From an uncultured Thermoplasmatales archaeon (GTDB taxonomy: Archaea > Thermoplasmatota > E2 > DHVEG-1): DNA of 64,000 nt. The first letter of the stretch is position 1, and each line of letters starts with the position of its first letter. Location of the stretch: NCBI GenBank assembly GCA_964648565.1, contig CAZYLG010000001.1, positions 12,315 through 76,314 on the forward strand, read 5' to 3'. Below, one piece after another: positions 1 to 29,494 of the stretch. Under the pieces are notes generated by a model. It saw only the letters and a list, made by a program, of their open reading frames with translations. It made no database searches and was not told where the DNA came from. The position numbers and the translations under genes were made by a program.

Positions 1-46
1 AAAAAAATATTTAATTAAACAAAAGATAATCGTAGAGAGAATAAAA

Positions 47-376
47 ATGTATTATGTAATATATGACAGTGAAGACAGAATGACATTAGTTTGTACCGAC
101 AAAAAACCCGTTATAGATGAAGATGCTATAGAATTTAGTTATATATATTGGATGGGAACTCTGATTGATGACGATGAAGGTGGACGGGGTAGATTTTCTG
201 GTTCAGAAAAATTTTTTATATTAGTTGAAAGTGATGAAATAAATGAAGAAAATCTTATTGTCACACAAAATTTTGATGAAATAAAAAATAAATTTAGATT
301 GATTGCAAAACATGTTAAGAATAAAGAAGATAGCATAAAGGCTTTTTTTGAAAAGAATAAACATGGTAATCAATAA
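47..376 (+). CDS. hypothetical protein, 109 aa, acidic
   Basis: Open reading frame with ATG start and AT-rich leader. No recognisable motifs. Confidence 0.4.
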   Translation: MYYVIYDSEDRMTLVCTDKKPVIDEDAIEFSYIYWMGTLIDDDEGGRGRFSGSEKFFILVESDEINEENLIVTQNFDEIKNKFRLIAKHVKNKEDSIKAFFEKNKHGNQ

Positions 377-388
377 AAGGAGCAAAAA

Positions 389-529
389 ATGAATAAAAGC
401 GATATGATTATAAAAGCACTAACTAAATTAATAAAACAAATCAATGAGATGAAGGAAGTAATGAATACTATGTCTGAATCAATTGATTTATTGGTTAAAA
501 TAGAGACAGAACGAATCAAGGAGGATTAA
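389..529 (+). CDS. small hypothetical protein, 46 aa (MNKSDMIIKALTKLIKQINEMKEVMNTMSESIDLLVKIETERIKED), absent from the ORF track because it is under 60 aa
   Basis: ATG at 389 sits 6 nt after AAAGGAG. The stop TAA at 527..529 is followed immediately by the next ATG at 531. The product is predicted to be helical. Confidence 0.45.
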   Translation: MNKSDMIIKALTKLIKQINEMKEVMNTMSESIDLLVKIETERIKED

Positions 530-530
530 T

Positions 531-758
531 ATGCCCCATAGAATAAATAAGTTACTAAATGAAAAAGGAACAGTAAGTTCATACAACAAACAAGATGTTT
601 CTACAAGAGAATATTATTATGATCGAGAAACAACTGATAAAAAACAACAAGATGAATTTGCCGACAATTTAAAAAAATTAGATAAATTTAATGCAAAACT
701 TATTAAAGAATTAGAAAAAGGTGAAAAAGCTGATTTTAAGTTAAGTAAAGAGGAGTAA
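531..758 (+). CDS. hypothetical protein, 75 aa, charged, likely coiled coil
   Basis: AAGGAGG precedes the ATG at 531. Translationally coupled to the neighbouring genes. Confidence 0.5.
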   Translation: MPHRINKLLNEKGTVSSYNKQDVSTREYYYDRETTDKKQQDEFADNLKKLDKFNAKLIKELEKGEKADFKLSKEE

Positions 759-762
759 ATAT

Positions 763-3700
763 ATGAGTTTCCCTTCAAGTCCAGTAAATGGTCAAGTATA
801 TGGTAATTATGAATGGGACGAATCATTAGGAGCATGGAGAGATACAGGCGGGGTAGACATCCCTGGTATTTTTTATGGTATATCTACCGGTGATAGAAGT
901 TTGGCTGGAGGTGCTCTTATTCCGTTTCAAAATGTAGTTAAAGAAAGTACATATCTCACGTATGATGATATAAATAATATTATTGAAATAGGTAGAGATG
1001 GTTGGTACTATATTACCTATCATATGACTACATATATTCCATCAGGTACCGGAGATAATAATTCGTATGCTTGGTTAGAAATTGATTCTGGAGCAGGATA
1101 CGACGAAGTAGTTGGTTCCAGGGGTGGTATGTATAATGAAGATGCTTCTACCGGAACTAATAGTACTTCTGTAGAAATCTATCAATATCTTAATGAAGGA
1201 GATAAAGTTCGTCTTTTTGCTTCTCAAGATAGTGGATCACAAGCAGTATGGTTACTTGGTGGGTCCACCGCATTACTTATTAGAACAGTTGAAGGCGTAA
1301 AAGGTGAAAAAGGGGAAGTACCTGAACATGAATGGAATGGTTCTGAATTACGATTTAGAAGTTCAGACGGAACATGGGGGAGTTACACAGATTTGTCTGG
1401 ACCTCCAGGAACTCCTGGACCACAAGGACCTCAAGGACAACCAGGTTTAGCCGCGGCGTGGACAACAGGGTCATATTCATATGGAGCTCTTGTATCACAC
1501 AATGATTTATTATATATTAGTACAGAAGCCGACAATACAGATGAACCTGGTACTACAGACACCTGGAAGCAATGGAATCCAGCATTAGAAATGGATGAAA
1601 TGCCATTGGGTACTATTTTACCGTGGCATGAAAGTTTTGAAGCAATGAAAAATCCGCCACGATCTATTGGGTTCAATGGTGAATATAAAGAAAACGCTTT
1701 ACAGGATAATTCTGCAGATTTTAATACTGATGGAGTTATGGTTGGTGATATTGTAGTAAACAAAACCGATCAGATTTTTGCTAAAGTAGTAGCAAAAGTT
1801 CCGCATATGATTACATTAGATTATGATGCTTTTCCTTCAGGTGGTGAAGAATATGAAGTATATCCACAAGCAATATTACATCCAGCATTTGAGAAATGTG
1901 ATGGTCAGACATTAAATGATTCGACATCTCCTTTTGACGGAAGACAACTACCTAATACAAATTCTGCTCGAGAATTTTTACGTGGAGGAAATTTATCTGG
2001 TGTTAAAGAATCTGATGCCTTTCAGGGTCACGAACATCAAGTATCATTCTCTCAATCATCTAATACATATGATTACTACCGTGTAGATAACACGTATTTT
2101 GTACTAAGTAATGATACAGATACCGTTGGGATAAAAGACAAAAGTGGTTACGGCACCGCTAGATATGATGTAGAGACTCGACCTGTAAATATGTCTGTGA
2201 TTTATATTATTAAAGTTCGTAATATTGATAGCATAAGATTTGCTACTGAATATAAAGTTGATGGTGATAATTTTCATAGTTTTACTCCAATAACACAATT
2301 ACGACCAGATATGGAATTCCCTGTATATGATCCTATAAGTTCTACATACCAAAAAATACGTTTAGATAATTTTGTTATATCAAAACCTTATTTAAGAATA
2401 GAGGATAATAAACCATTTGGAGAACATGGTGGGGCTGTACCAACTACTGACACATGGTTTACAAGAACATTAAACACTGTTTACAACAATGAAATTAATA
2501 ATTCTGATTTAAGTGGAAGTTTGATAACGTTACCGCCAGGGAGATATTATATTCGTTGGAAAGTACCAGGAAGGGCGATATTACGTTTCACATCACGTAT
2601 TTTAGATATCACACACAATAAAGTATTAGCATCTGGTTCTAATGAATATGCACACACTGGTTATTCACATTCACTTTGGTCTACTGGTGAAACTCAAATT
2701 GAACTAAAAGAAGATACACAACTTGCTGTTCAAATGATTGCCGGGACAAATAGTGGGAATGATGATCTCGGTATTAGTATGAATGGTGACGGACTTAATG
2801 AGATAGGACATGAAACATATACTACATTTGAAGCATGGCAACTACATTCAATATCAGAAACATATTCAACTGAAACTGTAAATAATGTTAATACTGCGCC
2901 AATGTTTCATTTAAGAGAAGAATTTGAACCTGGAACTTCAAGAAATTTATCACAAAATACATGGCATACACGTGAATTAAATACCGAACGTATAAATGAA
3001 GTTTCTGGCGCGACTTCAGATTTAGAAAATCATACTATTACTTTACCTGCTGGTAGATATTATTTTGAATTTAATTGTTATTCCTATGCTACTAATGCTA
3101 ATGTATGTAGGTTACAAGATGTAACTCATAACATAACATTGATAGAAGGTTTTACAGGGTATTCTAGTACATCAACTGACGTATATATACAAGGTTCTGG
3201 AGTGGTTGAACTACTAACAGAATCAACATTGGAATTGCAACATGCATGGGATAATGATGGTGGTAATAATGAATTTGGTGTTAACACAACTAATACTATG
3301 GGACAACGACAAATTCATGCTGAACTAAAGGGGTGGCAACATAATGCGTATGAAATTACTACTACCTTAGAACAACATCAGAATATTAATACTCCACCAT
3401 TATTCCAAATTGAACATAGAACCGATGATGAAATTTCACCGACTGATACAACTAATGATCATACATGGTTACCACGTAGTCTTAATACTACAGTTATAAA
3501 CGAAACAGATGCTATATTGGGAGATAATGGAGAATTTACTCTTACTCCTGGAAAATGGTACATTGATTGGTTCGAGGTTGGTTACAGAACATATCGCTGG
3601 GCAAGTATAATCTGGGATAAAACACATGGTAAAATGGCTTTAGTTGGAGCACAAGGGTATAATCATACAAGTTATTCGGTAATGACTCATTCTAATGGAA

Positions 3701-6700
3701 GTGGGTATATAGTCGTTAATGAAGACACTACATTTCAAATGATGCATTATTCTGAAACCAGTGGAGATGATAATAGAACATGGGGATTTTCTGACGGGGA
3801 ACCGTATACTCCATATAAAATTCATGCTCAGTTAAAAGCCTGGCAAGTTAATACTTATGATATTACTATTAATAAAACAATAACAACTGAACATAATATT
3901 AATCGTCCTCCAACAATTCATATACAAGAACGACAAGCTCCTGGAGCTGATGCTGGAGGATTTCTAAATGGAAACGGTTTATGGAGTCCAAGAAGAATAA
4001 ATTCTATAGTTATTAATGAAGTAACTGGAGCTTCATTTGATTCTGTAAATTATCAACTAACTGTTCCGGTTGGTCTATACGATTTAGATTGGTGGGCGAA
4101 CGCATATGATGTTAACGGTCACAAAACGAGAATATTTGATGTCACTCATAGTATTACCATCGCTGAAGGTTCTAATGAATATGCAGATACAAGTTACCAA
4201 CATATAACTCGTTCTAGAGGCTCTTTTACCCATCAATTCACTGAAGAGACTGTTATAGAATTACAACATGCAGCAGAAAGTGAATCTGGGGATAATCATG
4301 ACCAAGGTTTTCAAATGGCTAGTAGGTTTAATCCTGTAGAATATGAATTATATGCTGAATTAAAGTTACAGCAAGTCGAAGCATTTGAAATAACTAGAAC
4401 ATTTAATATAACTACTGAAAATAATATTAATCGACCACCTAAATTCCATATCCAAGAACGTCAGCCTAATGATATTAATTCATATGAACCAGCTCCATCA
4501 ACAGACAATACATGGATAACGAGAAAAATTAATACTCATGTATTAAATGAGATTACCGGAGCTTCACTTGATGATGTTGCTCATCAATTTACATTACCTC
4601 CTGGTAAATATGACATAGATTGGAGATGCTCATTATATAATCCAGATTATTTTAATTCAAGATTATATGATGTAACCCATATGAATACAGCTATTCAGGG
4701 GTATGGATCACATAATAATGATCAACATACACTAAGTGAAGGACGTCAAACCATAGAGTTAATTGAAGAAACAACATTTGAATTACAATTTATTGTATCA
4801 GATAACGCCGAAAGTTCATGGATCGGAGGTCACCAATCTGGGAATTCACACCCGTCAATATTATATGAATTATATTCAGATATCGAAATTTTTCAAATTG
4901 AAGAACATAATATTACGATTGATCATACTATAACCACTGAACACAACAGTAATCGTCCACCCCGAGTGCATGCTCAGGAAGTATTACCATATGGTACAGG
5001 TGATAGAAATCAAGGACGAGCTGGACCATTTGATGCCAATGATACATGGACAAGAAGAAGAATAAATATGCTTCGAAGTAACGAAATTAACGGAGTATTA
5101 TTTAGTTCAGATACTGGAAAATTTATTTTTCCAGCTGGTAGATATGACGTCGATTGGTATGCAATATCATATGCAGCATATTCTCACACAACACAATTAT
5201 ATGACTCAACTCATAATGAAGTTCTTGTACAAGGTTCGATGGGGTATAATCATGCTTCGTATCCATCTAATACGTATTCTGTTGGAAGAGGATCATTTGA
5301 ATTAACAGAAGAAACTATTATAGAAATTCGTCATATAGCTGATTCAAGTTCTACAGATTCTCATGCAATGGGAGAATCATACCCTGAGAATGTCATTTCT
5401 GGGTTGGAACAACAAATATATGCTGACGTATTATTCCAGCAAACAGAGGCTCTTGAAATAGTTCAAGAATATAATATTACTCAACAACATAATATTAATT
5501 TTCCTCCAACATTGTTTATGGAGGAACGTCAACCACTTGGTACCGATGCTGGTGATATAACACCAACTTGGAGACCACGAAAATTAAATACTATAATTAA
5601 AAATGAAATTACCGGAGCATCATTAGATACTTCAATAAATTCATTTACATTACCACCTGGTAAATATTTTATCAATTCTATTGCTCCTGCAAGATATGTT
5701 GACTTACATCGTACTCGATTATTTAATGAAACAAAATTTATACAGGAATTAATTAGTGATTCAGTAGAAGGAGATAATGACCAAGGTGGAGTTAGTTTCG
5801 CGCATTTAAGTGGTTATATAGAAATATCAGAGGAAACTACATTCCAGATACAACATAAAAGTAATTACCAAAGAAACGGGGATGGAATGGGTCAATCAAC
5901 CGGTATCGATTCAACATTTTATGATGCTGGATATGAAAAATATTGTACCACATACATTCAACAAATAGAAGAATATACTGTTAACAGAGAAATAGATTTT
6001 AGAACAGAATTTAGTCTCAATTCTCCACCACTGTTTTATGCTGAATATAGAGTAGAAAATGGTCAAAATTCAGAAGAAAGTATTCCGGCCAATACATGGA
6101 CTACAAGATTCATCAACACTCCAGTTACAAATGAAATTACAGGAGCGGAATTAAATAATAATGAAATTACTCTTCCTTCTGGACTATATTGGGTAGAGTG
6201 GTCTGCATTGGCCGGAGATGTAGATAGTCATAGATCAAGATTATATGATGTAACTCATAGTAAAACGTTACTTTATGGTAATTCGATGTTTGCTGAGAAT
6301 AGTTATTGGGTTCAAAATACTAGTGATGGACAAGGTAGAATTTATCTTGATGAAGAAACTATGGTACGAATAGAACATATTATGACTCATGATGGTAGTG
6401 GATCGAGAGCCGGATATAATACTAATTTTATAAGTAGTAGTCATGAAACATATAATTGGATAAAAATTGAAGCTACTGAAATCCATGAGATAACGCGAGA
6501 ATATACTCAGTCACAGGACAACAATATTAATCGACCACCAATATTACACGTGCAACACAGAATGCCGGCTGGCCAACATGGTGGCGCACTAGGTATTCAT
6601 AATGACACATGGTATACAAGACCATTGAATACAATTGTTACTAATGAAATAGAAGAAATATCTGGTACTAGAGCGAAAGCAATTGGAACAGAAGATGTAT

Positions 6701-9700
6701 CTGGGATAATTGATTGGACAGTTAATAATGAAACATTTGATATTGAAGTAAACGGTGGAACTGTATTTACTGTTACATTCACAACTATTACAAATAGTGT
6801 TTTAGAGGTTGTTACTGTTATAAATGATGAGTTTAACAGCCAAGGACTCTCAGATGTAATTCAAGCATATGATACTGGATCTAATACAATAGAAATTAGA
6901 ACAACTGCTATTGGTTCTAATCAAACATTCACATTAATATCAGGTACTACTAACGATGCTTTAACGATATTAGGGTTAACTCCTGGTACGTATACAGGTA
7001 CAAATGTGATAGGAGGATTAAATCCATATACAAATCAATTTACATTAACTGCTGGTATATATGACATCGATTGGAAACTAAATGCATACGGTAGTAATGA
7101 TTCAAATTCACAACTATATGATGTAACTCATGGTACAGTATTATTGTCTGGATCTTCAGAATTTACAAGTACATCATATCAAGCAAGCGTTAAGACATTC
7201 GGACATGGATCATTTGAATTAACAGAAACTACTACATTGGAATTACAACAAATAGTTCAAAGCAATGCGAACACAGATTCAGTAACTGGTAATTCGACAT
7301 CAAGTTATCCGGGGCTTATCCAACATGAAATATATGGAGATGTTTTAATATCAAAGATAAATTCTTTCAATATTAATAGAGAATTTACTATATCTCAGAA
7401 TAATAATATTAATACTCCACCCATGGTGCATCTTGAAGAACGACAACCAGTCGGAACTGAATCCGGTGATTTTGAATCTGGAGTATGGAGAACAAGAAAA
7501 TTAAATACTGTTGTTACAAATGAATTACCTGGAGATTCTAGCGCCACTCCACCTATACCTCCGGCACAATTTGATGTACTAACACATACTCTTATATTAC
7601 CAGCTGGTGAATATTATGCTGATATATGGGCACCAGTATATATAGTAGATAGTCATGTCGCTCGTCTACAAGATGTATCAAACAATACTACATTATTATG
7701 GGGTACTTCAGAATTTGCTCAAGACAACTATTACGTAAGTAACTACTCACATATTAGTGGAAGATTTATATTATCTGAAGAAACATCATTACAAGTTCAA
7801 CATCAATGTCAAGTAACACGTAATAGTAACGGATTTGGTGTAGCCGCAGGAAGCTCAATATCAGGCCTCGATCATGAAACATATTCTACAGCAAAATTTT
7901 GGCAAGTTACTGCTCAAGAAGTAGTTGGACGAGAACTTACGACGATAGAAGACCATTATCGCCCTCCATTATTTTATATTACTGATCAACGTAACGGGGT
8001 TAATGGTGGTCAGGCTTTATCTGGTTGGACACAAAATATAAGAGAATTAAATGTAATACGTACAAATGAAATTAGTGGAGCATCATTGGATGTGGCAACT
8101 GATACGATTACTCTTCCAGCTGGAAAATATTATATTGAATGGTCATGTCCTGCTTATGATGTCGGGTATCATGTTAGTAGATTACATAATCTTACTGATG
8201 CACAAATTTATATGGGAGAAGTAGCTCACTCAGGTGGCACTCAAACTCGTAGTGAAGGATCAACATCGTTCGAAATAATGCATGAATGTGAATTTCAAAT
8301 TGAACATGGTGTCGAATTGGGTGGATCGAACACTCAAGAATTAGGTTCTACAGCTGGTCATGGATATGGAGATGATGTTTATACTACGATAAGAATATGG
8401 CAAACATATGCAGATACAGTTACTCGGACATTAGATTATACTCATAACGTGAATATGCCTCCATTGTTACACATGGAAAGTAGAATCAACGGAAGTGCTA
8501 CTGAAACGACCCCTTCACCAAATGCTTGGAATATAAGAGAATTAAATACTATTGTTGGTGCAAACGAAATTAGTGGAGCATCATTGGATTCTACTACACA
8601 TGAATTTACATTACCTGCAGGAATGTATATGTTTGATGTTATTGTTCCAGCATATAAAACAAATGGATGGAGATCTCGGCTCTATAATGTAACAGCAGAC
8701 ACCACAGCATTATGGGGCACTACTACATATGCTAATGCTACTGGAAATGTAGAAAATAATTCATTTATAAAAGGGCGCTTAGATCTCACAGAAGAGACGA
8801 CACTACGAATAGAATATTATATTAATAATAATGATTCTAGTGCTGCTGGAAACGGATATAATGAAACAAGTGCGATGGGTGCATCATTCTCAACATATGC
8901 CGTAGCTCTTGTGTATGCTATAGAAGTATATAATATTACAAGAGATTTAACGATAGAACAAAACATCAATATACCACCAGTATTCCACGCACGAGAAACA
9001 TATACAGGTACGAATGATTCATATGATCTAGATAATGCATGGGTAACACGACATATTAATTCAGTAGTAAGAAATGAAATTACCGATGCAGCATTAAATA
9101 CATCTGATTATCAAATTACATTACCTGCTGGGAAGTACATGATTGAATGGAAGACATACATGCTTGGACAGGGATGGGGTAAATCTCGAATTCAAAATAT
9201 AGGAACATCTACTACTATAGCAGAAGGTATAGTAGAATCTGGTGGTTCTGCTTCTACAATGAGTCCATCAAAACAAATTATAGAGTTAACTGAAACTACG
9301 ACATTAGAATTACAAAATTATGTAAGTAGCTCTGCTATTGATTTTAATTCGGATACTCCTCCAGTTCCAGGTCCGTATATTTGGGCAGAATTCTATGCTT
9401 GGCAAATCAATACATTAGAAATAAATACAACAGCAACCTATACATATGAAGCTAATACTGCTCCAACATTAATTGTAGAAGAACGTCAACCAGTCGGAAC
9501 TGAATCTGGTGATTTTACATCAGGAAGTCGACAAAGAAGAGTAATAAATTCAGTTATTATTAACGAAATTACTGGAGCTGAATTAGAATTTGATCAACCA
9601 CAAATCACCTTACCTGCTGGGCAATATGAAATATCATTTGAAGCTCAAGCATATAAAGTAGATAGGCATAAAGCATGGTTACACTCTGTAACAAGTGGTC

Positions 9701-9930
9701 TTGATCATATTGAAGGTTCGACGGAGTATGCAGGGAGCACAATTGATGTAACCACATCATCAAAAGGATTTAATAGAGTTATCTTATCACAAAATGAAAC
9801 ATTAGAATTGCAACACGAGTGTGAGACAACAAAAACAACTAATGGGCTTGGAGTCGTAAGTGGTGGTGTATTCTCAACTGTAAATCATGAATGTTATTCA
9901 AAAATAATTATTAAACGGATAGGAGATTAA
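763..9930 (+). CDS. giant fibre-like structural protein, 3055 aa. It has an N-terminal MSFPSSP..W motif, a short collagen-like G-X-Y segment, about 14 tandem ~170-aa repeats, and one inserted module shared with the 1843-aa protein.
   Basis: AGGAG 6 nt upstream of the ATG. An uninterrupted 9.2-kb ORF. Each repeat carries TWxTRxLNT..NEITGASLD..TLPxGKY.I.W..RLYDVTHN..ELQH..NINRPP.FHxQERQ. Repeat starts near nt 2452, 2957, 3462, 3978, 4508, 5041, 5563, 6093, 6603, 7482, 8020, 8522, 9038 and 9525. The collagen-like run GPPGTPGPQGPQGQPG is at 1399..1446. Confidence 0.85.
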   Translation: MSFPSSPVNGQVYGNYEWDESLGAWRDTGGVDIPGIFYGISTGDRSLAGGALIPFQNVVKESTYLTYDDINNIIEIGRDGWYYITYHMTTYIPSGTGDNNSYAWLEIDSGAGYDEVVGSRGGMYNEDASTGTNSTSVEIYQYLNEGDKVRLFASQDSGSQAVWLLGGSTALLIRTVEGVKGEKGEVPEHEWNGSELRFRSSDGTWGSYTDLSGPPGTPGPQGPQGQPGLAAAWTTGSYSYGALVSHNDLLYISTEADNTDEPGTTDTWKQWNPALEMDEMPLGTILPWHESFEAMKNPPRSIGFNGEYKENALQDNSADFNTDGVMVGDIVVNKTDQIFAKVVAKVPHMITLDYDAFPSGGEEYEVYPQAILHPAFEKCDGQTLNDSTSPFDGRQLPNTNSAREFLRGGNLSGVKESDAFQGHEHQVSFSQSSNTYDYYRVDNTYFVLSNDTDTVGIKDKSGYGTARYDVETRPVNMSVIYIIKVRNIDSIRFATEYKVDGDNFHSFTPITQLRPDMEFPVYDPISSTYQKIRLDNFVISKPYLRIEDNKPFGEHGGAVPTTDTWFTRTLNTVYNNEINNSDLSGSLITLPPGRYYIRWKVPGRAILRFTSRILDITHNKVLASGSNEYAHTGYSHSLWSTGETQIELKEDTQLAVQMIAGTNSGNDDLGISMNGDGLNEIGHETYTTFEAWQLHSISETYSTETVNNVNTAPMFHLREEFEPGTSRNLSQNTWHTRELNTERINEVSGATSDLENHTITLPAGRYYFEFNCYSYATNANVCRLQDVTHNITLIEGFTGYSSTSTDVYIQGSGVVELLTESTLELQHAWDNDGGNNEFGVNTTNTMGQRQIHAELKGWQHNAYEITTTLEQHQNINTPPLFQIEHRTDDEISPTDTTNDHTWLPRSLNTTVINETDAILGDNGEFTLTPGKWYIDWFEVGYRTYRWASIIWDKTHGKMALVGAQGYNHTSYSVMTHSNGSGYIVVNEDTTFQMMHYSETSGDDNRTWGFSDGEPYTPYKIHAQLKAWQVNTYDITINKTITTEHNINRPPTIHIQERQAPGADAGGFLNGNGLWSPRRINSIVINEVTGASFDSVNYQLTVPVGLYDLDWWANAYDVNGHKTRIFDVTHSITIAEGSNEYADTSYQHITRSRGSFTHQFTEETVIELQHAAESESGDNHDQGFQMASRFNPVEYELYAELKLQQVEAFEITRTFNITTENNINRPPKFHIQERQPNDINSYEPAPSTDNTWITRKINTHVLNEITGASLDDVAHQFTLPPGKYDIDWRCSLYNPDYFNSRLYDVTHMNTAIQGYGSHNNDQHTLSEGRQTIELIEETTFELQFIVSDNAESSWIGGHQSGNSHPSILYELYSDIEIFQIEEHNITIDHTITTEHNSNRPPRVHAQEVLPYGTGDRNQGRAGPFDANDTWTRRRINMLRSNEINGVLFSSDTGKFIFPAGRYDVDWYAISYAAYSHTTQLYDSTHNEVLVQGSMGYNHASYPSNTYSVGRGSFELTEETIIEIRHIADSSSTDSHAMGESYPENVISGLEQQIYADVLFQQTEALEIVQEYNITQQHNINFPPTLFMEERQPLGTDAGDITPTWRPRKLNTIIKNEITGASLDTSINSFTLPPGKYFINSIAPARYVDLHRTRLFNETKFIQELISDSVEGDNDQGGVSFAHLSGYIEISEETTFQIQHKSNYQRNGDGMGQSTGIDSTFYDAGYEKYCTTYIQQIEEYTVNREIDFRTEFSLNSPPLFYAEYRVENGQNSEESIPANTWTTRFINTPVTNEITGAELNNNEITLPSGLYWVEWSALAGDVDSHRSRLYDVTHSKTLLYGNSMFAENSYWVQNTSDGQGRIYLDEETMVRIEHIMTHDGSGSRAGYNTNFISSSHETYNWIKIEATEIHEITREYTQSQDNNINRPPILHVQHRMPAGQHGGALGIHNDTWYTRPLNTIVTNEIEEISGTRAKAIGTEDVSGIIDWTVNNETFDIEVNGGTVFTVTFTTITNSVLEVVTVINDEFNSQGLSDVIQAYDTGSNTIEIRTTAIGSNQTFTLISGTTNDALTILGLTPGTYTGTNVIGGLNPYTNQFTLTAGIYDIDWKLNAYGSNDSNSQLYDVTHGTVLLSGSSEFTSTSYQASVKTFGHGSFELTETTTLELQQIVQSNANTDSVTGNSTSSYPGLIQHEIYGDVLISKINSFNINREFTISQNNNINTPPMVHLEERQPVGTESGDFESGVWRTRKLNTVVTNELPGDSSATPPIPPAQFDVLTHTLILPAGEYYADIWAPVYIVDSHVARLQDVSNNTTLLWGTSEFAQDNYYVSNYSHISGRFILSEETSLQVQHQCQVTRNSNGFGVAAGSSISGLDHETYSTAKFWQVTAQEVVGRELTTIEDHYRPPLFYITDQRNGVNGGQALSGWTQNIRELNVIRTNEISGASLDVATDTITLPAGKYYIEWSCPAYDVGYHVSRLHNLTDAQIYMGEVAHSGGTQTRSEGSTSFEIMHECEFQIEHGVELGGSNTQELGSTAGHGYGDDVYTTIRIWQTYADTVTRTLDYTHNVNMPPLLHMESRINGSATETTPSPNAWNIRELNTIVGANEISGASLDSTTHEFTLPAGMYMFDVIVPAYKTNGWRSRLYNVTADTTALWGTTTYANATGNVENNSFIKGRLDLTEETTLRIEYYINNNDSSAAGNGYNETSAMGASFSTYAVALVYAIEVYNITRDLTIEQNINIPPVFHARETYTGTNDSYDLDNAWVTRHINSVVRNEITDAALNTSDYQITLPAGKYMIEWKTYMLGQGWGKSRIQNIGTSTTIAEGIVESGGSASTMSPSKQIIELTETTTLELQNYVSSSAIDFNSDTPPVPGPYIWAEFYAWQINTLEINTTATYTYEANTAPTLIVEERQPVGTESGDFTSGSRQRRVINSVIINEITGAELEFDQPQITLPAGQYEISFEAQAYKVDRHKAWLHSVTSGLDHIEGSTEYAGSTIDVTTSSKGFNRVILSQNETLELQHECETTKTTNGLGVVSGGVFSTVNHECYSKIIIKRIGD
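1399..1446 (+). repeat. collagen-like Gly-X-Y triplet run (GPPGTPGPQGPQGQPG) inside the 3055-aa ORF
   Basis: Read directly from the translation. Loose GxY triplets (GEKGEV) precede it at about 1300..1330. Confidence 0.7.
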
Positions 9931-9932
9931 TT

Positions 9933-10469
9933 ATGAAAGACGGAACTATTGTATTACAGAAAGCTAGTGGACATGCTAAAGGTTTTGAAAAATTAGTATT
10001 AGATGCTATTGTATTTTTTACTGAAAGTCCTTATGTTCATGTGTTATTATATATGGATGATGAATTTTGGGAAAGTACTATATTTATGGATGGAAAATGG
10101 CTTTTTTCTGGCGTACGAACAAGAAAAAATGTACCTCATCAGGTTGCTTTAGAACCAATAAAAGACTTAACAGCTGAAGAAAAAAAGAAAATAAAGAAAT
10201 ATATGGAAAAAATGAGGGATTATAATGTACCTTATAATTTTGCTCGTTTAGTTGCTCTCGCTGTTGTATATCCATTAAAAGGTATTTTCAAACTACTTAA
10301 TTGGGTTCCTTTTAAGGCTGAATTTTTTGGTGAAGTATGTTCTACATTTGTAGATGAAGCATATGAACAAGCTGGAAGGGATTTATTACCTAATGAAATG
10401 GAAGAATATACTGCTCCTGGTGATTTTCTAAAATTAGTGGAATTAGGAACATTTAAAAGAATTAAATAA
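9933..10469 (+). CDS. hypothetical protein, 178 aa; possible permuted papain-like (NlpC/P60/YiiX-like) amidase, a tail-associated lysin candidate
   Basis: GGAG precedes the ATG. A conserved His (HVLLYMDD) lies N-terminal to a Cys in GEVCSTFVDEAYEQAG, the arrangement seen in permuted papain-fold amidases. The similarity is weak. Confidence 0.35.
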   Translation: MKDGTIVLQKASGHAKGFEKLVLDAIVFFTESPYVHVLLYMDDEFWESTIFMDGKWLFSGVRTRKNVPHQVALEPIKDLTAEEKKKIKKYMEKMRDYNVPYNFARLVALAVVYPLKGIFKLLNWVPFKAEFFGEVCSTFVDEAYEQAGRDLLPNEMEEYTAPGDFLKLVELGTFKRIK

Positions 10470-10824
10470 ATCTCCGTAATTTTTCGGTAGCTAAGTCACC
10501 CTTAATAATACTTGCCTCATCCTCGAGAATTCGATATAATTCCTCTTGGTCTATTTTTTTGGTCTCTAACTCCACCATCTTATCAACAATGTGAGATACT
10601 TTTTCTACAGTCATATTTTTATTTTTCAACTTATTTAATTCATCACTATATTTATTCAATTTATAGTTTGTATCATACAACAATTGTTTTGCGGATAAAT
10701 AATCTACAATTAATGCTGTTATTTCATTAGTTATATCTACTTCAAGACCTTTTCTATTTTTAATAGATACTTTACCGCCCTCTCGTATCACTCTTTTTAA
10801 TTGTTTAGTAAAATTATCATTCAT
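10462..10824 (-). CDS. hypothetical coiled-coil protein, 120 aa
   Basis: ORF 2 nt downstream of the gp6-like gene on the minus strand. Its stop overlaps the convergent + gene by 8 nt. Confidence 0.45.
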   Translation of the reverse strand: MNDNFTKQLKRVIREGGKVSIKNRKGLEVDITNEITALIVDYLSAKQLLYDTNYKLNKYSDELNKLKNKNMTVEKVSHIVDKMVELETKKIDQEELYRILEDEASIIKGDLATEKLRRFI

Positions 10825-10825
10825 A

Positions 10826-13102
10826 TTATAATTCTTCGAAATATAAAATTAACCCATGTGTTTTATTTTCTATTACTTCGATACCAGACCATTCATCTTG
10901 AGCTAATACTAAAATTTCATTATATTTTGCATTAATTTGAAATTCTACGTTATCAGCTTCAATCGATGCCAATTCTGAATCAGTAATAACGTCTAGAGCA
11001 TTTTGCCGGTATGCATAATAATCTCTTCCTAGATATGTGATTTCAACTAATCGCACTCCAGGATATGACATCATATACGAACTCAATTCTGTTTTAGAAA
11101 TTGATTGCCCAAATGTTTGTTTATTAATGTTATACTGATTTCTTGTATAATTATAAATATTCTCTTTTACAGTGTTCTTCATATTCTTAAATGTATATAC
11201 TGTAGCTACAACATCATATACTCCATATCGAGCGTCTTTAATATGATTATCAACACACAACATTTTTTGATTCTTAATATATTCTAAATACATATTTTCT
11301 TCAGAAGTATTATTCGGATCCCATCCATCAGCATAGTATGTAATGACAGTTTCATCATTTGTAATATTCGAAGTAGATGTAAGAATAATTTTATTAAATT
11401 CCCAATTAATTGTATAATCACTACCTTTTGTATATTTAGTTTGCCCTGTTTTATCATATATTTCAATTGGAAAATTTGGGTATAAACTGTTTAATGAAGT
11501 GTCTAATGTAATCGCATAATCATCAACTGATGAATCATATGCGAATGTGTGAACAACATTTTGTTTATGTTCTTCCCATGTATCATCAAATACATATAAT
11601 ACCCGTAATATTGTTGGTTCTGTTTCAGATGCTGGTGATGGAATTGTACCACCATCAACTGATTGTATTCTTGAAAATGTAGATTCAGATTCATTAATTG
11701 TATAATCTGTATCTTGTATATATGAATCCATGGCTAACCAATCTGTACTTCCAGTATCATAATGAACAACATACATAGTATTACTTTTATTCATTCTATA
11801 TTTTTTTAAATAAATAGTTTGTTTAGATGGATATAATTCTATATCTTCATAATCAACAACATAATGCGGATTATATGTTTTTGATAATCTAAACAAATCA
11901 TTAAATTCTACCGGACTAGTTTCTTCATACCCTTCTCTTAACGGACAAATATAAATCCATGTATCAAGAGGCGGTAAAAAATAACCATATTCTTGAAATA
12001 TAGCTTCTGGCTCATTGTCTTTACTTACAATTGTAGCATGTAATATTGTTGGATTATTTTCTAATTTTATAATATAATCTTCATTTGTAACTGTTTTATT
12101 CGCAGTTCGAAGTTCAAGAGGTGAACGAAATTTTGCAGTTTCTAAATCTTCAGTATCAGATCCTCCTGCTGCTGATTTAGTATTAGTGAATACTAATGTA
12201 ATCCGCTCACCAGCGAGAGTATATGTTTTAGTACTGTTAATTGTATTTGCTGGAATATTCGTATTTGTACCACCACCAACTCTATATGTTACTTGTAATC
12301 GTTCTCCTTTTTTTGGAATTTCAACTAAATTTTCATGTCCATATACGATATCAACAGAATTATCATTATTAACTTCAACACGATATGGTATTGTTTTTAA
12401 TGATTCATCAACTTCATTCTGTTGGGCTTCAGGAGAAATAAATGAATCTACTTCAAGGTGTTCTTTTCCAGTAGTTAATGATGTTATTCGTATAGAACTA
12501 TCAATAATTGGATTCTGTGTAAGAGTAAACCGTTCATTATTAATACCATCTGACCATATATCATCTTCAGTGACTGTTACACCCTGATAAAACGGAACAC
12601 CACTAATATTATAAATTTTATTTGTTTCATCACCACTCTCCACATGATAAACAAAACTATAATTTGGTTTACCGTCATCTGCCATTTCTATACACTCAAA
12701 TGTTGTTATAATACCATTTTTATCAGGTACATCTAGAGTTTCTAATGGATTGAGATTAAAAGGCGGAGTCCATTTTGCTAATTTTAAATTAACACTAACT
12801 CTCGCAGCTGATGGTAGTGGTGGTTTATAATTGATTAGTTTTAATATATTAATTACACTTTCTCTTTTAGTAGCTGTGGAAATAAACATTTCTCTAGCAT
12901 ACCAATCAGTTTTTGCGGCTACTTTTTCTGCGATGTAAGCACTTAACTCCAACAACATCCTTCCAGCATTCGTTTCAAGAAAATCATTCCAATTTTCTAA
13001 ATATTCTGGGTGTTCGGTAATTGAATTTTCTACATCTGTTATAATTGTATTAAAATCTAGTTCTGTATAACTAAATTTAGGTAGCTTTACTAAATTATCC
13101 AT
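10826..13102 (-). CDS. baseplate wedge protein, T4 gp6 / Baseplate_J-like, 758 aa
   Basis: The N-terminal region (NWNDFLETNAGRMLLELSAYIAEK...FISTATKRESV...YKPPLPSAA) follows the pattern of the T4 gp6 N-terminus (W..EFLD..GSRLNVLCDLLAY...ESF..A..R.SV..GY.P.S..A). It lies in the same orientation as the gp25 homologue, separated from it only by the 533-aa endonuclease-like gene. Confidence 0.65.
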   Translation of the reverse strand: MDNLVKLPKFSYTELDFNTIITDVENSITEHPEYLENWNDFLETNAGRMLLELSAYIAEKVAAKTDWYAREMFISTATKRESVINILKLINYKPPLPSAARVSVNLKLAKWTPPFNLNPLETLDVPDKNGIITTFECIEMADDGKPNYSFVYHVESGDETNKIYNISGVPFYQGVTVTEDDIWSDGINNERFTLTQNPIIDSSIRITSLTTGKEHLEVDSFISPEAQQNEVDESLKTIPYRVEVNNDNSVDIVYGHENLVEIPKKGERLQVTYRVGGGTNTNIPANTINSTKTYTLAGERITLVFTNTKSAAGGSDTEDLETAKFRSPLELRTANKTVTNEDYIIKLENNPTILHATIVSKDNEPEAIFQEYGYFLPPLDTWIYICPLREGYEETSPVEFNDLFRLSKTYNPHYVVDYEDIELYPSKQTIYLKKYRMNKSNTMYVVHYDTGSTDWLAMDSYIQDTDYTINESESTFSRIQSVDGGTIPSPASETEPTILRVLYVFDDTWEEHKQNVVHTFAYDSSVDDYAITLDTSLNSLYPNFPIEIYDKTGQTKYTKGSDYTINWEFNKIILTSTSNITNDETVITYYADGWDPNNTSEENMYLEYIKNQKMLCVDNHIKDARYGVYDVVATVYTFKNMKNTVKENIYNYTRNQYNINKQTFGQSISKTELSSYMMSYPGVRLVEITYLGRDYYAYRQNALDVITDSELASIEADNVEFQINAKYNEILVLAQDEWSGIEVIENKTHGLILYFEEL

Positions 13103-14696: not shown

Positions 14697-14702
14697 AATA
14701 TA

Positions 14703-15065
14703 CTATTCTTGTTTTAATACATTAAATTCTAAAAATCTTTCATCATCAGGTGTTTCTTCTTTTAATTTAAATCCTATAACAACTTTTACTTTATTTTCAT
14801 CAGCTAAATTTTCTATATTTAAATCTAATATATCGACTCTTGGTTCATATAATTCAATTTGTTCGACAATTCTATCTTTTAAGAATCCTACAGTTTCATC
14901 ATCTCCTGGCTCAAATAACATAGAATTAATACTAACTCCAAAATAAGGATTCTTCAATCGCTCATTTTCATTCGTATTAAATAAGCGGCTTATTGATTCA
15001 GAAATTAAATCATGATCTTCTTTTATAATAAAAAAATCATGTCCGTACATTGCTATACCGCGCAT
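14703..15065 (-). CDS. baseplate wedge subunit gp25-like (GPW/gp25 lysozyme-like family), 120 aa
   Basis: NPYFGVSINSMLFEPGDDETVGFLKDRIVEQIELYEPRVDILDLNI aligns with T4 gp25 SRPFDPEFGCDLSDQLFENMTPLTADTVERNIESAVRNYEPRIDKLAVNV. GGAGG lies 8 nt upstream of the ATG. Confidence 0.85.
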   Translation of the reverse strand: MRGIAMYGHDFFIIKEDHDLISESISRLFNTNENERLKNPYFGVSINSMLFEPGDDETVGFLKDRIVEQIELYEPRVDILDLNIENLADENKVKVVIGFKLKEETPDDERFLEFNVLKQE

Positions 15066-15078
15066 TACTAATCCTCCT

Positions 15079-15095
15079 GAATTTATAGTTATCTT
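15079..15095 (-). promoter_or_regulatory. promoter-like motif AAGATAACTATAAATTC (minus strand) directly upstream of the gp25 SD; contains a T4-late-like TATAAAT
   Basis: Reverse complement of the + strand gaatttatagttatctt. A variant of the + strand motif TAAGATAATATAAA[TC] found at 15276, 16947 and 49224. Confidence 0.45.
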
Positions 15096-15129
15096 TTCAT
15101 AAATTCGAATTTATTTACAATTTTTCTTA

Positions 15130-15218
15130 GTGTTCACCAGCTGAACTCAATTTTTGGCTGTTCGTGTGCTGAACCCCACTGTTCGCCAGCTGAACCCTGC
15201 TGTTCGTCTGGTGGAACC
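15130..15218. repeat. array of four GC-rich palindromic repeats (consensus CTGTTCG-N5-CTGAACC, i.e. GTTC-N7-GAAC around a central CAGCTG), phased 21 bp apart in a divergent intergenic region
   Basis: R1 15130..15146 gtgttcaccagctgaac. R2 15158..15175 ctgttcgtgtgctgaacc. R3 15179..15196 ctgttcgccagctgaacc. R4 15200..15218 ctgttcgtctggtggaacc, which has an N8 spacer. GTTC starts fall at 15132, 15160, 15181 and 15202. This is a conspicuous GC island in AT-rich DNA. Confidence 0.8.
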
Positions 15219-15275
15219 TATATAGATATAATATATAGATATATAATAAAAATATACTACTACAGGCGGTGGATG

Positions 15276-15290
15276 TAAGATAATATAAAC
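15276..15290 (+). promoter_or_regulatory. conserved motif TAAGATAATATAAAC, promoter-like and T4-late-like, 8 nt upstream of the SD of the YegP-like gene
   Basis: One of three exact copies of TAAGATAATATAAA in the window. Confidence 0.5.
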
Positions 15291-15308
15291 TATAGTATAG
15301 GAGGTAAT

Positions 15309-15650: not shown

Positions 15651-15659
15651 AGGTTATTT

Positions 15660-15956: not shown

Positions 15957-15959
15957 AAT

Positions 15960-16906: not shown

Positions 16907-16946
16907 AAATAAAAATTAAATTTTATAAAGAAAAATAATCTCTTAT

Positions 16947-16961
16947 TTAAGATAATATAAA
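16947..16961 (+). promoter_or_regulatory. conserved motif TAAGATAATATAAAT (contains TATAAAT), 5 nt upstream of an AAGAGG SD
   Basis: Second exact copy of the 14-mer. Confidence 0.5.
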
Positions 16962-16981
16962 TTAAGTAAGAGGTATTTTTT

Positions 16982-18004: not shown

Positions 18005-18005
18005 T

Positions 18006-29480: not shown

Positions 29481-29494
29481 GAGGAAGATATTAA

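What the first reader, a model, noticed from the sequence alone, without database searches (positions are those of the whole stretch)
763..9930. 3055-aa protein built from about 14 tandem ~170-aa repeats with a ~510-bp period
The ORF is an almost pure tandem array. Repeat starts are listed in the feature and recur every 487 to 540 nt. Each unit has the same skeleton TWxTRxLNT..NEITGASLD..TLPxGKY.I.W..RLYDVTHN..ELQH..NINRPP.FH.QERQ but diverges at many positions. An N-terminal MSFPSSP..W motif and a collagen-like triplet run (1399..1446) precede the array. One repeat (6660..7020) is interrupted by a module shared with the 1843-aa protein. A 9-kb gene of diverged tandem domains is a candidate long flexible fibre or decoration protein whose repeat number could vary by recombination. 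No named domain was recognised by eye.
Basis: seen in the sequence. Interest (0 to 1): 0.6.

Follow-up and report, generated by a model that had tools for sequence, protein, structure and literature searches.

The report
Phage fibre with 14 C1q-like domains
A 3055-residue protein of an uncultured T4-like phage strings together 14 diverged copies of a C1q/TNF-like domain that other phages carry once at the tip of their tail fibres. The domain is a known kind, but the copy number is more than twice the next highest we found.

Summary
ORF 763..9930 (+) encodes 3055 aa, and residues 532-3055 are 14 back-to-back units of 163-182 aa. Unit 9 carries a 126-aa inserted module.

The units are real homologues but old: 20-41% protein identity and 39-57% DNA identity.

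An AlphaFold2 model of one unit (pLDDT 82) matches only C1q/TNF-superfamily jelly-roll trimers in the PDB. In BFVD it matches phage tail-fibre tips and viral collagen-like proteins. No Pfam model covers the unit. PHROG 24210 ("tail fiber protein") matches it 13 times.

A profile of the units finds about 13,000 proteins among 1.84 billion representatives. Nearly all of the best 150 have 1-3 copies, often C-terminal. The next highest has 6.

The N-terminal 531 aa hold a short collagen run and a tail-collar-like region. Baseplate wedge genes lie next door.

Best reading: a homotrimeric beaded tail fibre or adhesin made of 14 stacked C1q-like heads. Trimerisation and virion location are inferred, not shown.

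I rate it a new variant of a known kind, of moderate interest.

The parts
763..9930 (+). Whole gene: 3055-aa fibre-type protein (stop codon 9928-9930)
   Evidence: RBS GAGGAG 8 nt upstream of the ATG. The identical protein is on record in NCBI on a 117-kb contig.
763..843 (+). N-terminal motif MSFPSSPVNGQVYGNYEWDESLGAW
   Evidence: The same 25-aa motif (40% identity, E = 2e-5) opens a 164-aa ORF at 42886..43380. It may be a shared attachment motif; that is inference.
850..1287 (+). N-terminal beta-rich domain (aa ~30-175), possibly BclA-C/C1q-like
   Evidence: Weak Pfam BclA_C hit at aa 48-90, E = 6e-4, below the curated cut-off. hhalign to the unit profile is not significant. Weak PHROG 'tail' hits. 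Identity not settled.
1399..1446 (+). Short collagen-like run: 5 full G-X-Y triplets (aa 213-228)
   Evidence: Sequence, 9/18-nt periodicity, weak Pfam Collagen hit at E = 0.012, and alignment to the collagen-rich protein P0003.
1876..2232 (+). Tail-collar-like region (aa ~372-490)
   Evidence: BLASTP at 33-43% identity, E down to 1e-20, to repeated segments of P0002 and P0004-P0012, proteins that carry Pfam PF07484 (Collar) in their precomputed annotation; that those aligned segments are the PF07484 regions was not checked. Pfam itself gives no hit on this segment. The 841-aa protein P0016 shares aa 270-530 at 35% identity and then has 3 units.
2356..2871 (+). Unit 1 (aa 532-703)
2872..3366 (+). 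Unit 2 (aa 704-868)
3367..3879 (+). Unit 3 (aa 869-1039)
3880..4407 (+). Unit 4 (aa 1040-1215)
4408..4929 (+). Unit 5 (aa 1216-1389); the unit that was modelled
   Evidence: AF2 pLDDT 81.8, pTM 0.77. C1q/TNF fold matches.
4930..5475 (+). Unit 6 (aa 1390-1571)
   Evidence: It folds the same way in the two-unit model.
5476..6000 (+). Unit 7 (aa 1572-1746)
6001..6513 (+). Unit 8 (aa 1747-1917)
6514..7389 (+). Unit 9 (aa 1918-2209), split by an inserted module
   Evidence: The profile match is broken at model position 52/53.
6640..7017 (+). Inserted ~126-aa module inside unit 9 (aa 1960-2085), placed in the loop after the NEI motif
   Evidence: 47%, 43% and 38% identity to three copies in the 1843-aa ORF (nt 33580-33960, 34324-34710, 35317-35661). 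No Pfam hit and no PDB sequence match. Unit 10 has a 10-aa insertion at the same loop.
7390..7935 (+). Unit 10 (aa 2210-2391)
7936..8433 (+). Unit 11 (aa 2392-2557)
8434..8946 (+). Unit 12 (aa 2558-2728)
8947..9435 (+). Unit 13 (aa 2729-2891)
9436..9927 (+). Unit 14 (aa 2892-3055); it ends the protein, as the domain does in single-copy fibre tips
   Evidence: Its best relative is the C-terminal domain of P0114, at 46% identity.
9933..10469 (+). Downstream 178-aa ORF starting 3 nt after the stop; function unknown
   Evidence: Only a weak PHROG 1128 hit (crotonase-like, E = 1e-6) and no Pfam hit. A role as fibre chaperone is speculation.
10826..13102 (-). Context: baseplate wedge protein (gp6/J-like), convergent with the giant gene
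   Evidence: PHROG 219 at E = 2e-26. tblastn to gp6 / baseplate J of cyanophages and other myoviruses at 24-27% identity.
14703..15065 (-). Context: small baseplate wedge subunit (gp25/W-like is my reading; the PHROG labels say only 'baseplate wedge subunit')
   Evidence: PHROG 261 and 43, E = 3e-20.

Best explanation
The gene encodes a very long virion fibre or adhesin of an uncultured, distantly T4-like myovirus.

The N-terminal ~530 residues contain a short shared motif, a beta-rich domain, a 5-triplet collagen run and a tail-collar-like region. These would form the trimerising, particle-proximal part.

The remaining 2500 residues are 14 consecutive C1q/TNF-like jelly-roll domains. This is the same domain family that many marine and other phages carry once at the C-terminal, receptor-binding tip of their tail fibres.

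The likely assembly is three parallel chains. Unit n of each chain would join the same unit of the other two to make one trimeric 'head', giving a rod or string of 14 different heads. From typical C1q head size this would be roughly 70 nm or more; that figure is my estimate.

Each head keeps a family-wide polar motif (W..R..N....NE, then TLPxGxY) and differs in most other positions. The fibre would therefore present many non-identical surfaces for weak, multivalent binding to cell-surface glycans. One head also carries an extra module borrowed from another fibre gene.

**Shown:** the repeats, their homology, the predicted fold, the family distribution and the gene context.

**Inferred:** trimerisation, head-to-tail stacking, virion location and ligand binding.
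For: - **Repeats:** 14 contiguous units are present.
- **Fold:** The AF2 unit model has pLDDT 81.8 and pTM 0.77. The top 50 PDB Foldseek rows are, with one oddly described entry (7sgm_B), C1q/TNF-superfamily domains: collagen X NC1, C1QTNF5, Caprin-2 C1q, adiponectin, C1QL, EDA-A1, 4-1BBL and TNF. They score E about 1e-5 and TMt 0.6-0.74. The cyanophage A-1(L) short-tail-fibre CBD 8ke9 also appears.
- **Viral relatives:** BFVD matches have TMq 0.67-0.73 and rmsd 2-3 A. They include the Synechococcus phage S-RIP1 tail fibre, 'collagen triple helix repeat' and 'C1q domain containing' proteins of uncultured Caudovirales, and collagen-like proteins of giant viruses.
- **Tail-fibre family:** PHROG 24210 'tail fiber protein' matches 13 stretches, E = 5e-131. 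tblastn finds one unit in the region annotated 'tail fiber protein | hypothetical protein' of Sulfitobacter phages pCB2047-A/C and NYA-2014a.
- **Family distribution:** The profile search finds 13,046 proteins. Copy number in the 160 fetched proteins is 1 (47), 2 (76), 3 (28), 4 (5), 5 (1), 6 (1) and 14 (this one), with the domain often at the C-terminus. There is no preference for multiples of three, which favours inter-chain rather than intra-chain trimers.
- **Against a triplet super-repeat:** Similarity between units shows no lag-3 periodicity.
- **Against pseudo-trimer packing:** The two-unit model does not adopt the side-by-side packing of engineered single-chain C1q, adiponectin or BAFF trimers (rmsd 24-25 A, TMq 0.28).
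- **Trimer-associated elements upstream:** a collagen run and a collar-like region.
- **Gene context:** baseplate wedge genes are adjacent, and several other giant fibre-like genes lie nearby.
- **Literature:** C1q-like domains are recognised, hypervariable putative receptor-binding modules of marine pelagiphages and cryoconite phages (PMC3909814, PMC7468147). TNF-like fibre tips bind sugars between protomers in Bdellovibrio MAT fibres (PMC10769870).
Against: - Nothing here shows trimerisation, presence in the virion or any ligand.
- The fold assignment rests on a prediction made from a 13-row alignment of paralogues. PDB matches have moderate TM-scores (TMq about 0.5) because the unit is about 40 residues longer than C1q heads.
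- Canonical C1q/TNF domains have both termini at the same end. Head-to-tail stacking therefore needs the 12-17-residue linker to cross a domain. The two-unit monomer model gives that linker pLDDT below 50 and an overall pTM of 0.45, so the geometry is unresolved.
- No sequence-level match exists to Pfam C1q or to any PDB chain.
- The gene is convergent with the baseplate genes, not co-oriented, so the context is suggestive only.
- Internal units could be mere spacers rather than binding sites.
Confidence: 0.6

Rival explanations
1. Intramolecular pseudo-trimers. Consecutive units of a single chain pack three at a time into C1q-like heads, as in engineered single-chain TNF, C1q or adiponectin. 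The protein would then be a monomeric chain of about 4-5 heads.
For: In canonical C1q/TNF domains the N- and C-termini lie close together at the base. Short linkers therefore suffice to join protomers, as in the PDB single-chain constructs 5hkj, 4dou and 4zch, which the two-unit model aligns to domain by domain. Three-unit proteins are fairly common in the family (28 of 160).
Against: - 14 is not a multiple of 3.
- Family copy numbers of 1, 2, 4, 5 and 6 are common, and 2 is the mode.
- There is no lag-3 similarity pattern.
- The AF2 two-unit model does not reproduce the side-by-side packing (rmsd 24-25 A, TMq 0.28), although its inter-domain confidence is low.
- The upstream collagen run needs three chains.
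Confidence: 0.1
2. Capsid or neck decoration fibre (whisker or head fibre) rather than a tail fibre. The same beaded architecture would be anchored on the head and used for loose adhesion to cells, particles or mucus-like polymers.
For: Close structural relatives include collagen-like proteins of giant viruses, which may form capsid surface fibrils (that localisation is my assumption, not a tool result). The gene is not co-oriented with the baseplate genes. The N-terminal motif is shared with a small ORF of unknown role.
Against: - All PHROG matches, both strong and weak, fall in the 'tail' category.
- The collar-like region is shared with proteins that carry Pfam's tail-collar family PF07484.
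- The homologous single-copy domain lies in a region annotated 'tail fiber protein | hypothetical protein' in cultured phages.
- Baseplate wedge genes are the nearest identifiable neighbours.
Confidence: 0.15
3. Mainly a spacer. Only the last unit, or a few units, bind receptor. The other C1q-like units have been recruited as rigid shaft modules that set fibre length, as beta-helix or coiled-coil repeats do in other fibres.
For: - In most relatives the domain is terminal.
- Unit 14 is the unit most similar to a foreign C-terminal tip domain (46% identity to P0114).
- A core group of units (2-6, 13, and 8 and 12 nearby) looks like an in-situ expansion.
- The most conserved residues are the same in all units.
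Against: Units are as diverged from each other (mean 30% identity) as from tips of other phages. Several internal units (1, 7, 10, 11) also have their best match outside the protein, which is not what a homogenised structural repeat looks like. Nothing here can measure binding.
Confidence: 0.15

Closest known systems
C1q-like / TNF-like C-terminal receptor-binding heads of phage tail fibres. Examples are the regions annotated 'tail fiber protein | hypothetical protein' in Sulfitobacter phages pCB2047-A/C, the Synechococcus phage S-RIP1 tail fibre, PHROG 24210, and the pelagiphage 'C1q domain' putative RBPs of PMC3909814.
   Same: Same domain family by sequence: about 31-33% identity by tblastn, and PHROG 24210 at E = 5e-131. 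Same by predicted structure: TMq 0.67-0.72, rmsd 2-4 A. The domain ends the polypeptide in the same way.
   Different: Those proteins carry one copy (a few carry two or three) at the tip of a 250-850-aa fibre. Here 14 copies make up 83% of a 3055-aa protein, and one copy carries an inserted module.
Metazoan C1q/TNF superfamily globular heads: collagen X NC1 (1gr3), C1QTNF5, adiponectin, C1QL, Caprin-2 C1q, EDA-A1 and 4-1BBL.
   Same: Predicted 10-strand jelly-roll topology. These are the top PDB structural matches. A collagen-like run is present in the same protein.
   Different: There is no sequence-level similarity: Pfam C1q does not hit and the PDB profile search is empty. The unit is about 40 residues longer. 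The collagen run is far upstream rather than directly before each head. Trimerisation is unproven here.
P0016 (841 aa, JGI metagenome) and P0017 (640 aa): the closest architecture found.
   Same: P0016 shares the collar-containing region (aa 270-530, 35% identity), followed directly by tandem units. Its internal units are sister to the core group of window units in the NJ tree.
   Different: They have three units instead of 14. They lack the N-terminal domain, the collagen part and the inserted module.
Tandem BACON-domain arrays in tail-associated proteins of crAss-like phages (PMC6949934).
   Same: A carbohydrate-binding-type domain is amplified into a tandem array in a phage tail protein. 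According to that paper the arrays arose by a mix of sequential duplication and horizontal acquisition of separate domains. The unit phylogeny here hints at the same mixed pattern.
   Different: The fold is unrelated: BACON is an Ig-like beta-sandwich that works as a monomeric domain. C1q/TNF-like domains normally function as trimers, which imposes a register on three chains.
Bdellovibrio MAT (mosaic adhesive trimer) fibres with TNF-like tips (PMC10769870), and the Pam3 cyanophage tail fibre gp24 with a TNF-like middle domain (PMC9942802).
   Same: These are trimeric fibres that use a TNF-like domain for surface recognition. In Bd2439 a sugar (GlcNAc) binds in a pocket between protomers lined by conserved Tyr, Arg, His and Glu. 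This makes a reasonable model for the invariant W/R/N/N/E/Y positions of the units here; that link is inference.
   Different: There is one TNF-like domain per chain. No sequence relationship was tested or found.

Membership tests
C1q/TNF superfamily (fold level) | Compact ~10-strand antiparallel jelly-roll beta-sandwich | tested here: met
   AF2 model of unit 5: pLDDT 81.8, pTM 0.77, all-beta. Foldseek top hits are almost exclusively C1q/TNF domains, prob 1.00, TMt 0.6-0.74. The second unit in the two-unit model gives the same hits. This rests on a prediction, not an experimental structure.
C1q/TNF superfamily (fold level) | Assembly into a trimer around a three-fold axis | not testable with these tools
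   Only monomer prediction was available. Indirect support comes from the upstream collagen run and collar-like region and from the family's usual place at fibre tips.
Pfam C1q (PF00386) / TNF (PF00229) sequence families | Significant match to the family HMM | tested here: not met
   No unit hits C1q or TNF even at E <= 1, and the whole protein does not either. One homologue (P0173, Blastochloris tepida) is named 'C1q domain-containing protein' by UniRef.
PHROG 24210 (tail fiber protein) | Significant match to the family profile | tested here: met
   E = 5e-131 with 13 stretches. The best stretch, aa 2895-3053, matches profile positions 151-302 of 303, the C-terminal half of that family.
Pfam DUF5013 (PF16405) | A domain-level match covering the 149-position model | tested here: not met
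   The whole-protein score of 39.2 bits exceeds the 28.5 cut-off only by summing weak pieces. There are 0 individually significant stretches, and the best covers 23 residues (model 68-90). Single units give at best E = 0.017, in 1 of 13.
Phage tail collar domain (PF07484) | Match to the Collar HMM or to bona fide Collar domains | tested here: inconclusive
   Pfam scan of aa 207-540 gives no Collar hit. However, aa 372-490 align at 33-43% identity (E down to 1e-20) to repeated segments of P0002 and P0004-P0012, proteins whose precomputed Pfam annotation includes PF07484; I did not check that the aligned segments are the PF07484 regions.
Collagen triple helix (PF01391) | Uninterrupted G-X-Y triplets long enough to form a triple helix | tested here: inconclusive
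   Only 5 full triplets at aa 213-228. Pfam E = 0.012, 15.8 bits against a 27.2 cut-off. This is too short to be stable alone, but plausible between trimeric domains.
   There are no such Pfam hits, and the predicted fold is a C1q-like jelly-roll.
Recombinogenic (copy-number-variable) tandem repeat | Long stretches of near-identical DNA between units | tested here: not met
   DNA identity between units is 39-57% and the longest exact match is 24 nt. TRF finds no array. Adjacent units are no more similar than distant ones.

The most novel reading that the evidence does not exclude
The protein is a 'multi-head' adhesin: a single homotrimeric fibre displaying 14 different C1q-like receptor-binding heads. 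It would have been assembled partly by in-situ duplication and partly by capture of tip domains from other phages' fibres, and one head is further decorated with a module from a sister fibre gene. This would give the phage graded, multivalent, multi-specific attachment along the whole fibre, not just at its tip. It would also be the first natural example of C1q/TNF-type trimers stacked in series, which requires a previously undescribed linker solution to the same-end termini problem.
Probability: 0.25. Interest if true: 0.75.

Novelty: new variant of a known kind. Interest (0 to 1): 0.5.

Why it matters
C1q/TNF-like heads are among the commonest, most variable and least studied receptor-binding modules of environmental phages. 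They are normally seen singly, at the end of a fibre.

A natural chain of 14 raises a concrete structural question: how are obligate-trimer jelly-rolls, whose two termini sit at the same end, stacked in series?

It also raises a functional question: do internal heads bind ligands, which would give a multi-specific fibre?

The gene supplies 14 paralogous but 70%-diverged versions of one scaffold in a single construct. That is a ready-made panel for mapping which loops set specificity.

The profile built here covers a family of about 13,000 representative proteins that Pfam does not model, so it could become a new family definition.

If the array is simply a long shaft, the finding is an unusual but ordinary fibre.

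Tried and rejected
- **Tandem Repeats Finder** on 1..10500 found no long-period array because the units are too diverged.
- **Megablast** of the gene against 50,697 phage records gave no match.
- **phmmer and profile searches against PDB sequences** were empty for the protein and for the unit profile. For the inserted module there were only chance-level hits.
- **Pfam on single units, the insert and the N-terminal pieces** gave nothing above cut-off. DUF5013 was rejected as a summation artefact.
- **hhalign of the N-terminal domain against the unit profile** was not significant, so I do not claim a fifteenth unit.
- **Unit profile against all six-frame ORFs of the window** found no copy outside this gene.
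- **Searches for related loci** (baseplate gene and whole protein in IMG/VR, whole protein in GTDB genomes) found nothing, so copy number could not be compared among close relatives. The unit alignment was too variable for pattern search.
- **The look-up of encoding contigs for P0001** found no record, and the cluster look-up gave no name or accession.
- **A first three-unit alignment** (A2) was mis-registered by MAFFT because overlapping windows aligned on their identical parts, so it was not used.
- **Beta-hairpin connector idea.** In the single-unit model, a short strand from the preceding linker lies before strand A. I took this as a possible beta-hairpin connector. The two-unit model did not reproduce it (linker pLDDT below 50), so I dropped it as evidence.
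- **T4-type late promoter** (TATAAATA) and sigma-70 / terminator scans gave no enrichment and nothing useful upstream of the gene.
Full report

Yes. ORF 763..9930 on the + strand starts with ATG and encodes 3055 aa. A GAGGAG ribosome-binding site lies 8 nt upstream.

A regular-expression scan finds 14 'TLPxGKY'-type anchors spaced 163-184 aa apart. The one exception is a 291-aa gap between anchors 8 and 9.

A profile HMM built from the units tiles aa 532-3055 with 14 full-length matches and no gaps. The ninth match is broken at model position 52/53.

The homology does not depend on that self-built profile. BLASTP between units gives 75-125 bits. An independent phage family profile, PHROG 24210, matches 13 stretches with E = 5e-131.

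At the DNA level the array is almost invisible. Tandem Repeats Finder reports nothing with this period. Only the codons of the conserved motifs (42-91 nt, 60-90% identity) recur at about 500-546 nt spacing.

- the MSFPSSP...W start;
- the collagen-like run GPPGTPGPQGPQGQPG at nt 1399-1446;
- the interruption of one repeat, which is aa 1960-2085 (nt 6640-7017). This module is 47%, 43% and 38% identical to three copies in the 1843-aa ORF, and it occurs nowhere else in the window.

**2. What is the unit?**

No Pfam model detects it. Single units give no hit better than E = 0.017. The whole-protein DUF5013 hit (39 bits) is a sum of 23-residue fragments with no significant stretch. Sequence searches of the PDB are empty.

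An AlphaFold2 model of unit 5, using the other units as the alignment, is confident (mean pLDDT 81.8, pTM 0.77) and all-beta.

Foldseek against the PDB returns, almost without exception, C1q/TNF-superfamily jelly-roll domains at probability 1.00 and TMt 0.6-0.74. These are:
- collagen X NC1;
- C1QTNF5;
- Caprin-2 C1q;
- adiponectin;
- C1QL1-3;
- cerebellin;
- EDA-A1;
- 4-1BBL;
- TNF.

The receptor-binding domain of the cyanophage A-1(L) short tail fibre also appears.

Against predicted viral structures the matches are much closer, with TMq 0.67-0.73 and rmsd 2-3 A. They include:
- the tail fibre of Synechococcus phage S-RIP1;
- a 303-aa protein (M4QM50), the same length as the PHROG 24210 profile;
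- 'collagen triple helix repeat' and 'C1q domain containing' proteins of uncultured Caudovirales;
- collagen-like proteins of Fadolivirus, Pithovirus and other giant viruses.

tblastn finds one copy of the unit in the region annotated 'tail fiber protein | hypothetical protein' of Sulfitobacter phages pCB2047-A/C and NYA-2014a, and one in S-RIP1.

The unit is therefore a divergent viral branch of the C1q/TNF-like head domain. That fold is already recognised as a putative receptor-binding module in several systems:
- marine pelagiphages (PMC3909814);
- cryoconite phages (PMC7468147);
- a cyanophage tail protein (PMC7824862);
- eCIS fibres (PMC12923769);
- the Pam3 fibre (PMC9942802);
- Bdellovibrio MAT fibres, where it binds GlcNAc between protomers (PMC10769870).

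**3. How unusual is 14?**

A profile of 13 units was scored against 1.84 billion representative proteins. It finds 13,046 proteins at E <= 1e-3 and 9,238 at E <= 1e-10.

Multi-copy proteins score highest, so they rise to the top of the list. In the 160 sequences fetched, the copy number is:

| Copies | Proteins |
|---|---|
| 1 | 47 |
| 2 | 76 |
| 3 | 28 |
| 4 | 5 |
| 5 | 1 |
| 6 | 1 |
| 14 | 1 (this protein) |

In the single-copy members the domain usually ends the protein. Some complete proteins are nothing but two units (P0161 at 323 aa, P0162 at 306 aa).

The nearest architecture is P0016 (841 aa). It shares aa 270-530 at 35% identity and continues with three units.

The window protein is thus the extreme of a large family. 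Two caveats apply. Only the best 150 hits could be inspected, and metagenomic fragments would truncate other long arrays.

**4. History of the array**

Units are 20-41% identical in protein (mean 30%) and 39-57% identical in codon-aligned DNA. Adjacent units are no more alike than distant ones, and there is no lag-3 periodicity. The longest exact DNA match between two units is 24 nt.

Nearest-neighbour BLAST and an unbootstrapped NJ tree of 353 family domains place the units in three ways:
- Units 2-6 and 13 fall in one group, with 8 and 12 nearby, next to the internal units of P0016 and P0017.
- Units 1, 7, 10, 11 and 14 have their best BLAST match outside this protein. For example, unit 14 is 46% identical to the C-terminal domain of P0114.
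- Unit 9 also sits apart in the tree, although its best BLAST match is window unit 4.

This suggests an old core expansion plus either very old duplicates or captured tip domains. Tail-associated BACON arrays of crAss-like phages show the same mix (PMC6949934). Resolution at this level of divergence is poor, so I treat this as a lead only.

**5. The rest of the protein and the neighbourhood**

The N-terminal 531 aa contain the following parts.
- **Shared opening motif.** A 25-aa motif also opens a 164-aa ORF at 42886..43380.
- **Beta-rich domain (aa ~30-175).** It has a sub-threshold BclA_C (C1q-like) hit. hhalign does not relate it to the units.
- **Collagen-like run.** Five full G-X-Y triplets.
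- **Collar-like region (aa 372-490).** It aligns at 33-43% identity to segments of proteins that carry Pfam's Phage tail collar family (PF07484) in their precomputed annotation, although Pfam itself misses this region.

A 'collar + unit' cassette (aa 372-694) is also shared with about 2000-aa proteins that carry PF07484, PF13385, PF20129 and PF10102. One of them is named 'DUF2341 domain-containing protein', and two lie on contigs of about 6 Mb, which are presumably bacterial chromosomes.

Downstream and convergent lie:
- a gp6/J-like baseplate wedge gene (10826..13102, PHROG 219, E = 2e-26);
- a homing endonuclease;
- a small baseplate wedge subunit gene that I read as gp25-like (14703..15065).

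Seven large ORFs (3055, 3615, 1843, 1162, 657, 1277 and 1692 aa) together encode about 13,300 aa, which is about 40 kb of the 64-kb window. Several of them share fibre-type motifs.

The phage has no close relative in INPHARED, IMG/VR or GTDB. Its baseplate protein is 24-27% identical to those of cyanomyoviruses and other myoviruses.

**6. How it probably works**

C1q/TNF-like domains function as trimers, which is established knowledge of the superfamily. Collagen triplets also need three chains. T4 gp12, the prototype of the tail-collar family, is likewise trimeric; that too is prior knowledge rather than something tested here.

The parsimonious model is a parallel homotrimer in which the three copies of unit n form head n. 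This would give 14 different heads in series.

The alternative is that three consecutive units of one chain form a pseudo-trimer, like engineered single-chain C1q or TNF ligands. Four observations disfavour it:
- 14 is not a multiple of three.
- The family distribution has its mode at two copies.
- There is no lag-3 pattern in unit similarity.
- The two-unit model aligns domain by domain to the single-chain constructs 5hkj, 4dou and 4zch, but with rmsd 24-25 A and TMq 0.28. The two domains are therefore not packed as neighbouring protomers.

The two-unit monomer model has pTM 0.45 and a linker pLDDT below 50. The inter-unit geometry is simply unresolved, and whether the fibre is rigid or flexible remains open.

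The invariant positions across all units are P11, R39, N42, N47, E48 and G66 (unit-5 numbering). W36, Y68, T90, G98 and G141 are nearly invariant. All are also conserved in foreign family members. By analogy with Bd2439 they could line an inter-protomer pocket or the trimer axis; this is inference.

The loop after 'NEI' tolerates a 10-aa insertion in unit 10 and the 126-aa module in unit 9. It is therefore presumably surface-exposed.

**7. Verdict**

The domain is a known kind, a C1q/TNF-like fibre head, although no Pfam model detects it.

The 14-fold serial arrangement, with a nested foreign module, is a new variant. It carries a real structural puzzle and a testable functional hypothesis.

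Interest is moderate at 0.5. My confidence is about 0.9 for the fold, about 0.75 for a virion fibre or adhesin role, and about 0.6 for the full homotrimeric beaded-fibre model.

Noticed in passing
window 13095..14696 (-): A 533-aa homing/HNH endonuclease gene (PHROG 3339, E = 1e-127) sits between the small baseplate wedge subunit gene (14703..15065) and the gp6/J-like baseplate wedge gene (10826..13102). It overlaps the gp6/J-like gene's start by 8 nt.
   Followed up: partly
window 42886..43380 (+): A 164-aa ORF opens with the same 25-aa motif as the giant protein (MSFPTSPTDGD...GVW; 40% identity, E = 2e-5). The mechanically listed GTG start at 42742 overlaps the upstream gene and is probably wrong. 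The motif may be a common attachment peptide.
   Followed up: partly
window 30793..36324 (+), aa 933-1054, 1180-1304, 1511-1621: The 1843-aa ORF holds three copies of the ~125-aa module that is inserted in unit 9. The module has no Pfam or PDB sequence match and its fold was not predicted.
   Followed up: partly
window 29495..30714 (+): A 102-nt (34-aa) tandem repeat, within a larger 347-nt periodicity, runs across the small ORFs 29495..29845 and 29842..30396 and beyond. The motif is 'KNGNVTTPIIYD', with copies 71-88% identical (families D1 and D8).
   Followed up: no
window 30991..51611, several ORFs: A motif of the type 'HxHD..YYT.xE.D' recurs nine times in the 1843-, 1162-, 1277- and 1692-aa ORFs (family D5). 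It resembles the His-x-His motifs of long-tail-fibre proteins, which is my recollection and was not tested. This suggests these giant genes are fibres too.
   Followed up: no
window 27930..28028 and 50013..51923: A ~33-aa repeat 'WK.PV....GDLP...GN..GD.R.V' occurs several times in the 1692-aa ORF and once near the end of the 3615-aa ORF (families D4 and D9).
   Followed up: no
window 43707..47540 (+): The 1277-aa ORF has a Pfam 'Mtd second domain' hit (PF21916, E = 4e-8, aa 454-521). That Mtd is the receptor-binding protein diversified by the Bordetella phage retroelement is my recollection, not a tool result. I did not search for a reverse transcriptase or template repeats.
   Followed up: no
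window 36340..47540 (+): The 1162-, 657- and 1277-aa ORFs share an N-terminal 'LWENNPDTP...' region. The 1162- and 657-aa ORFs are 28% identical over 260 aa, and the 1162- and 1277-aa ORFs are 62% identical over 26 aa. This may be another shared attachment module.
   Followed up: no
window 763..54317: Seven ORFs of 657-3615 aa together take up about 40 kb of the 64-kb window. That is an unusually large investment in fibre-like proteins. Most have no Pfam or PHROG match.
   Followed up: partly
P0004-P0012 (fetched proteins, not in the window): Proteins of about 2000 aa, two of them on contigs of about 6 Mb (presumably bacterial chromosomes), contain the same 'collar + C1q-like unit' cassette as aa 372-694 of the phage protein. 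They carry PF07484, PF13385, PF20129 and PF10102, and one is named 'DUF2341 domain-containing protein'.
   Followed up: partly
window 56778..63009 (-): This is a block of non-structural genes. It holds a tRNA nucleotidyltransferase (PHROG 2244), a radical-SAM/SPASM protein 43% identical to one in Klebsiella phage KP15-like T4-type phages, and a DHH/DHHA1 phosphoesterase.
   Followed up: no
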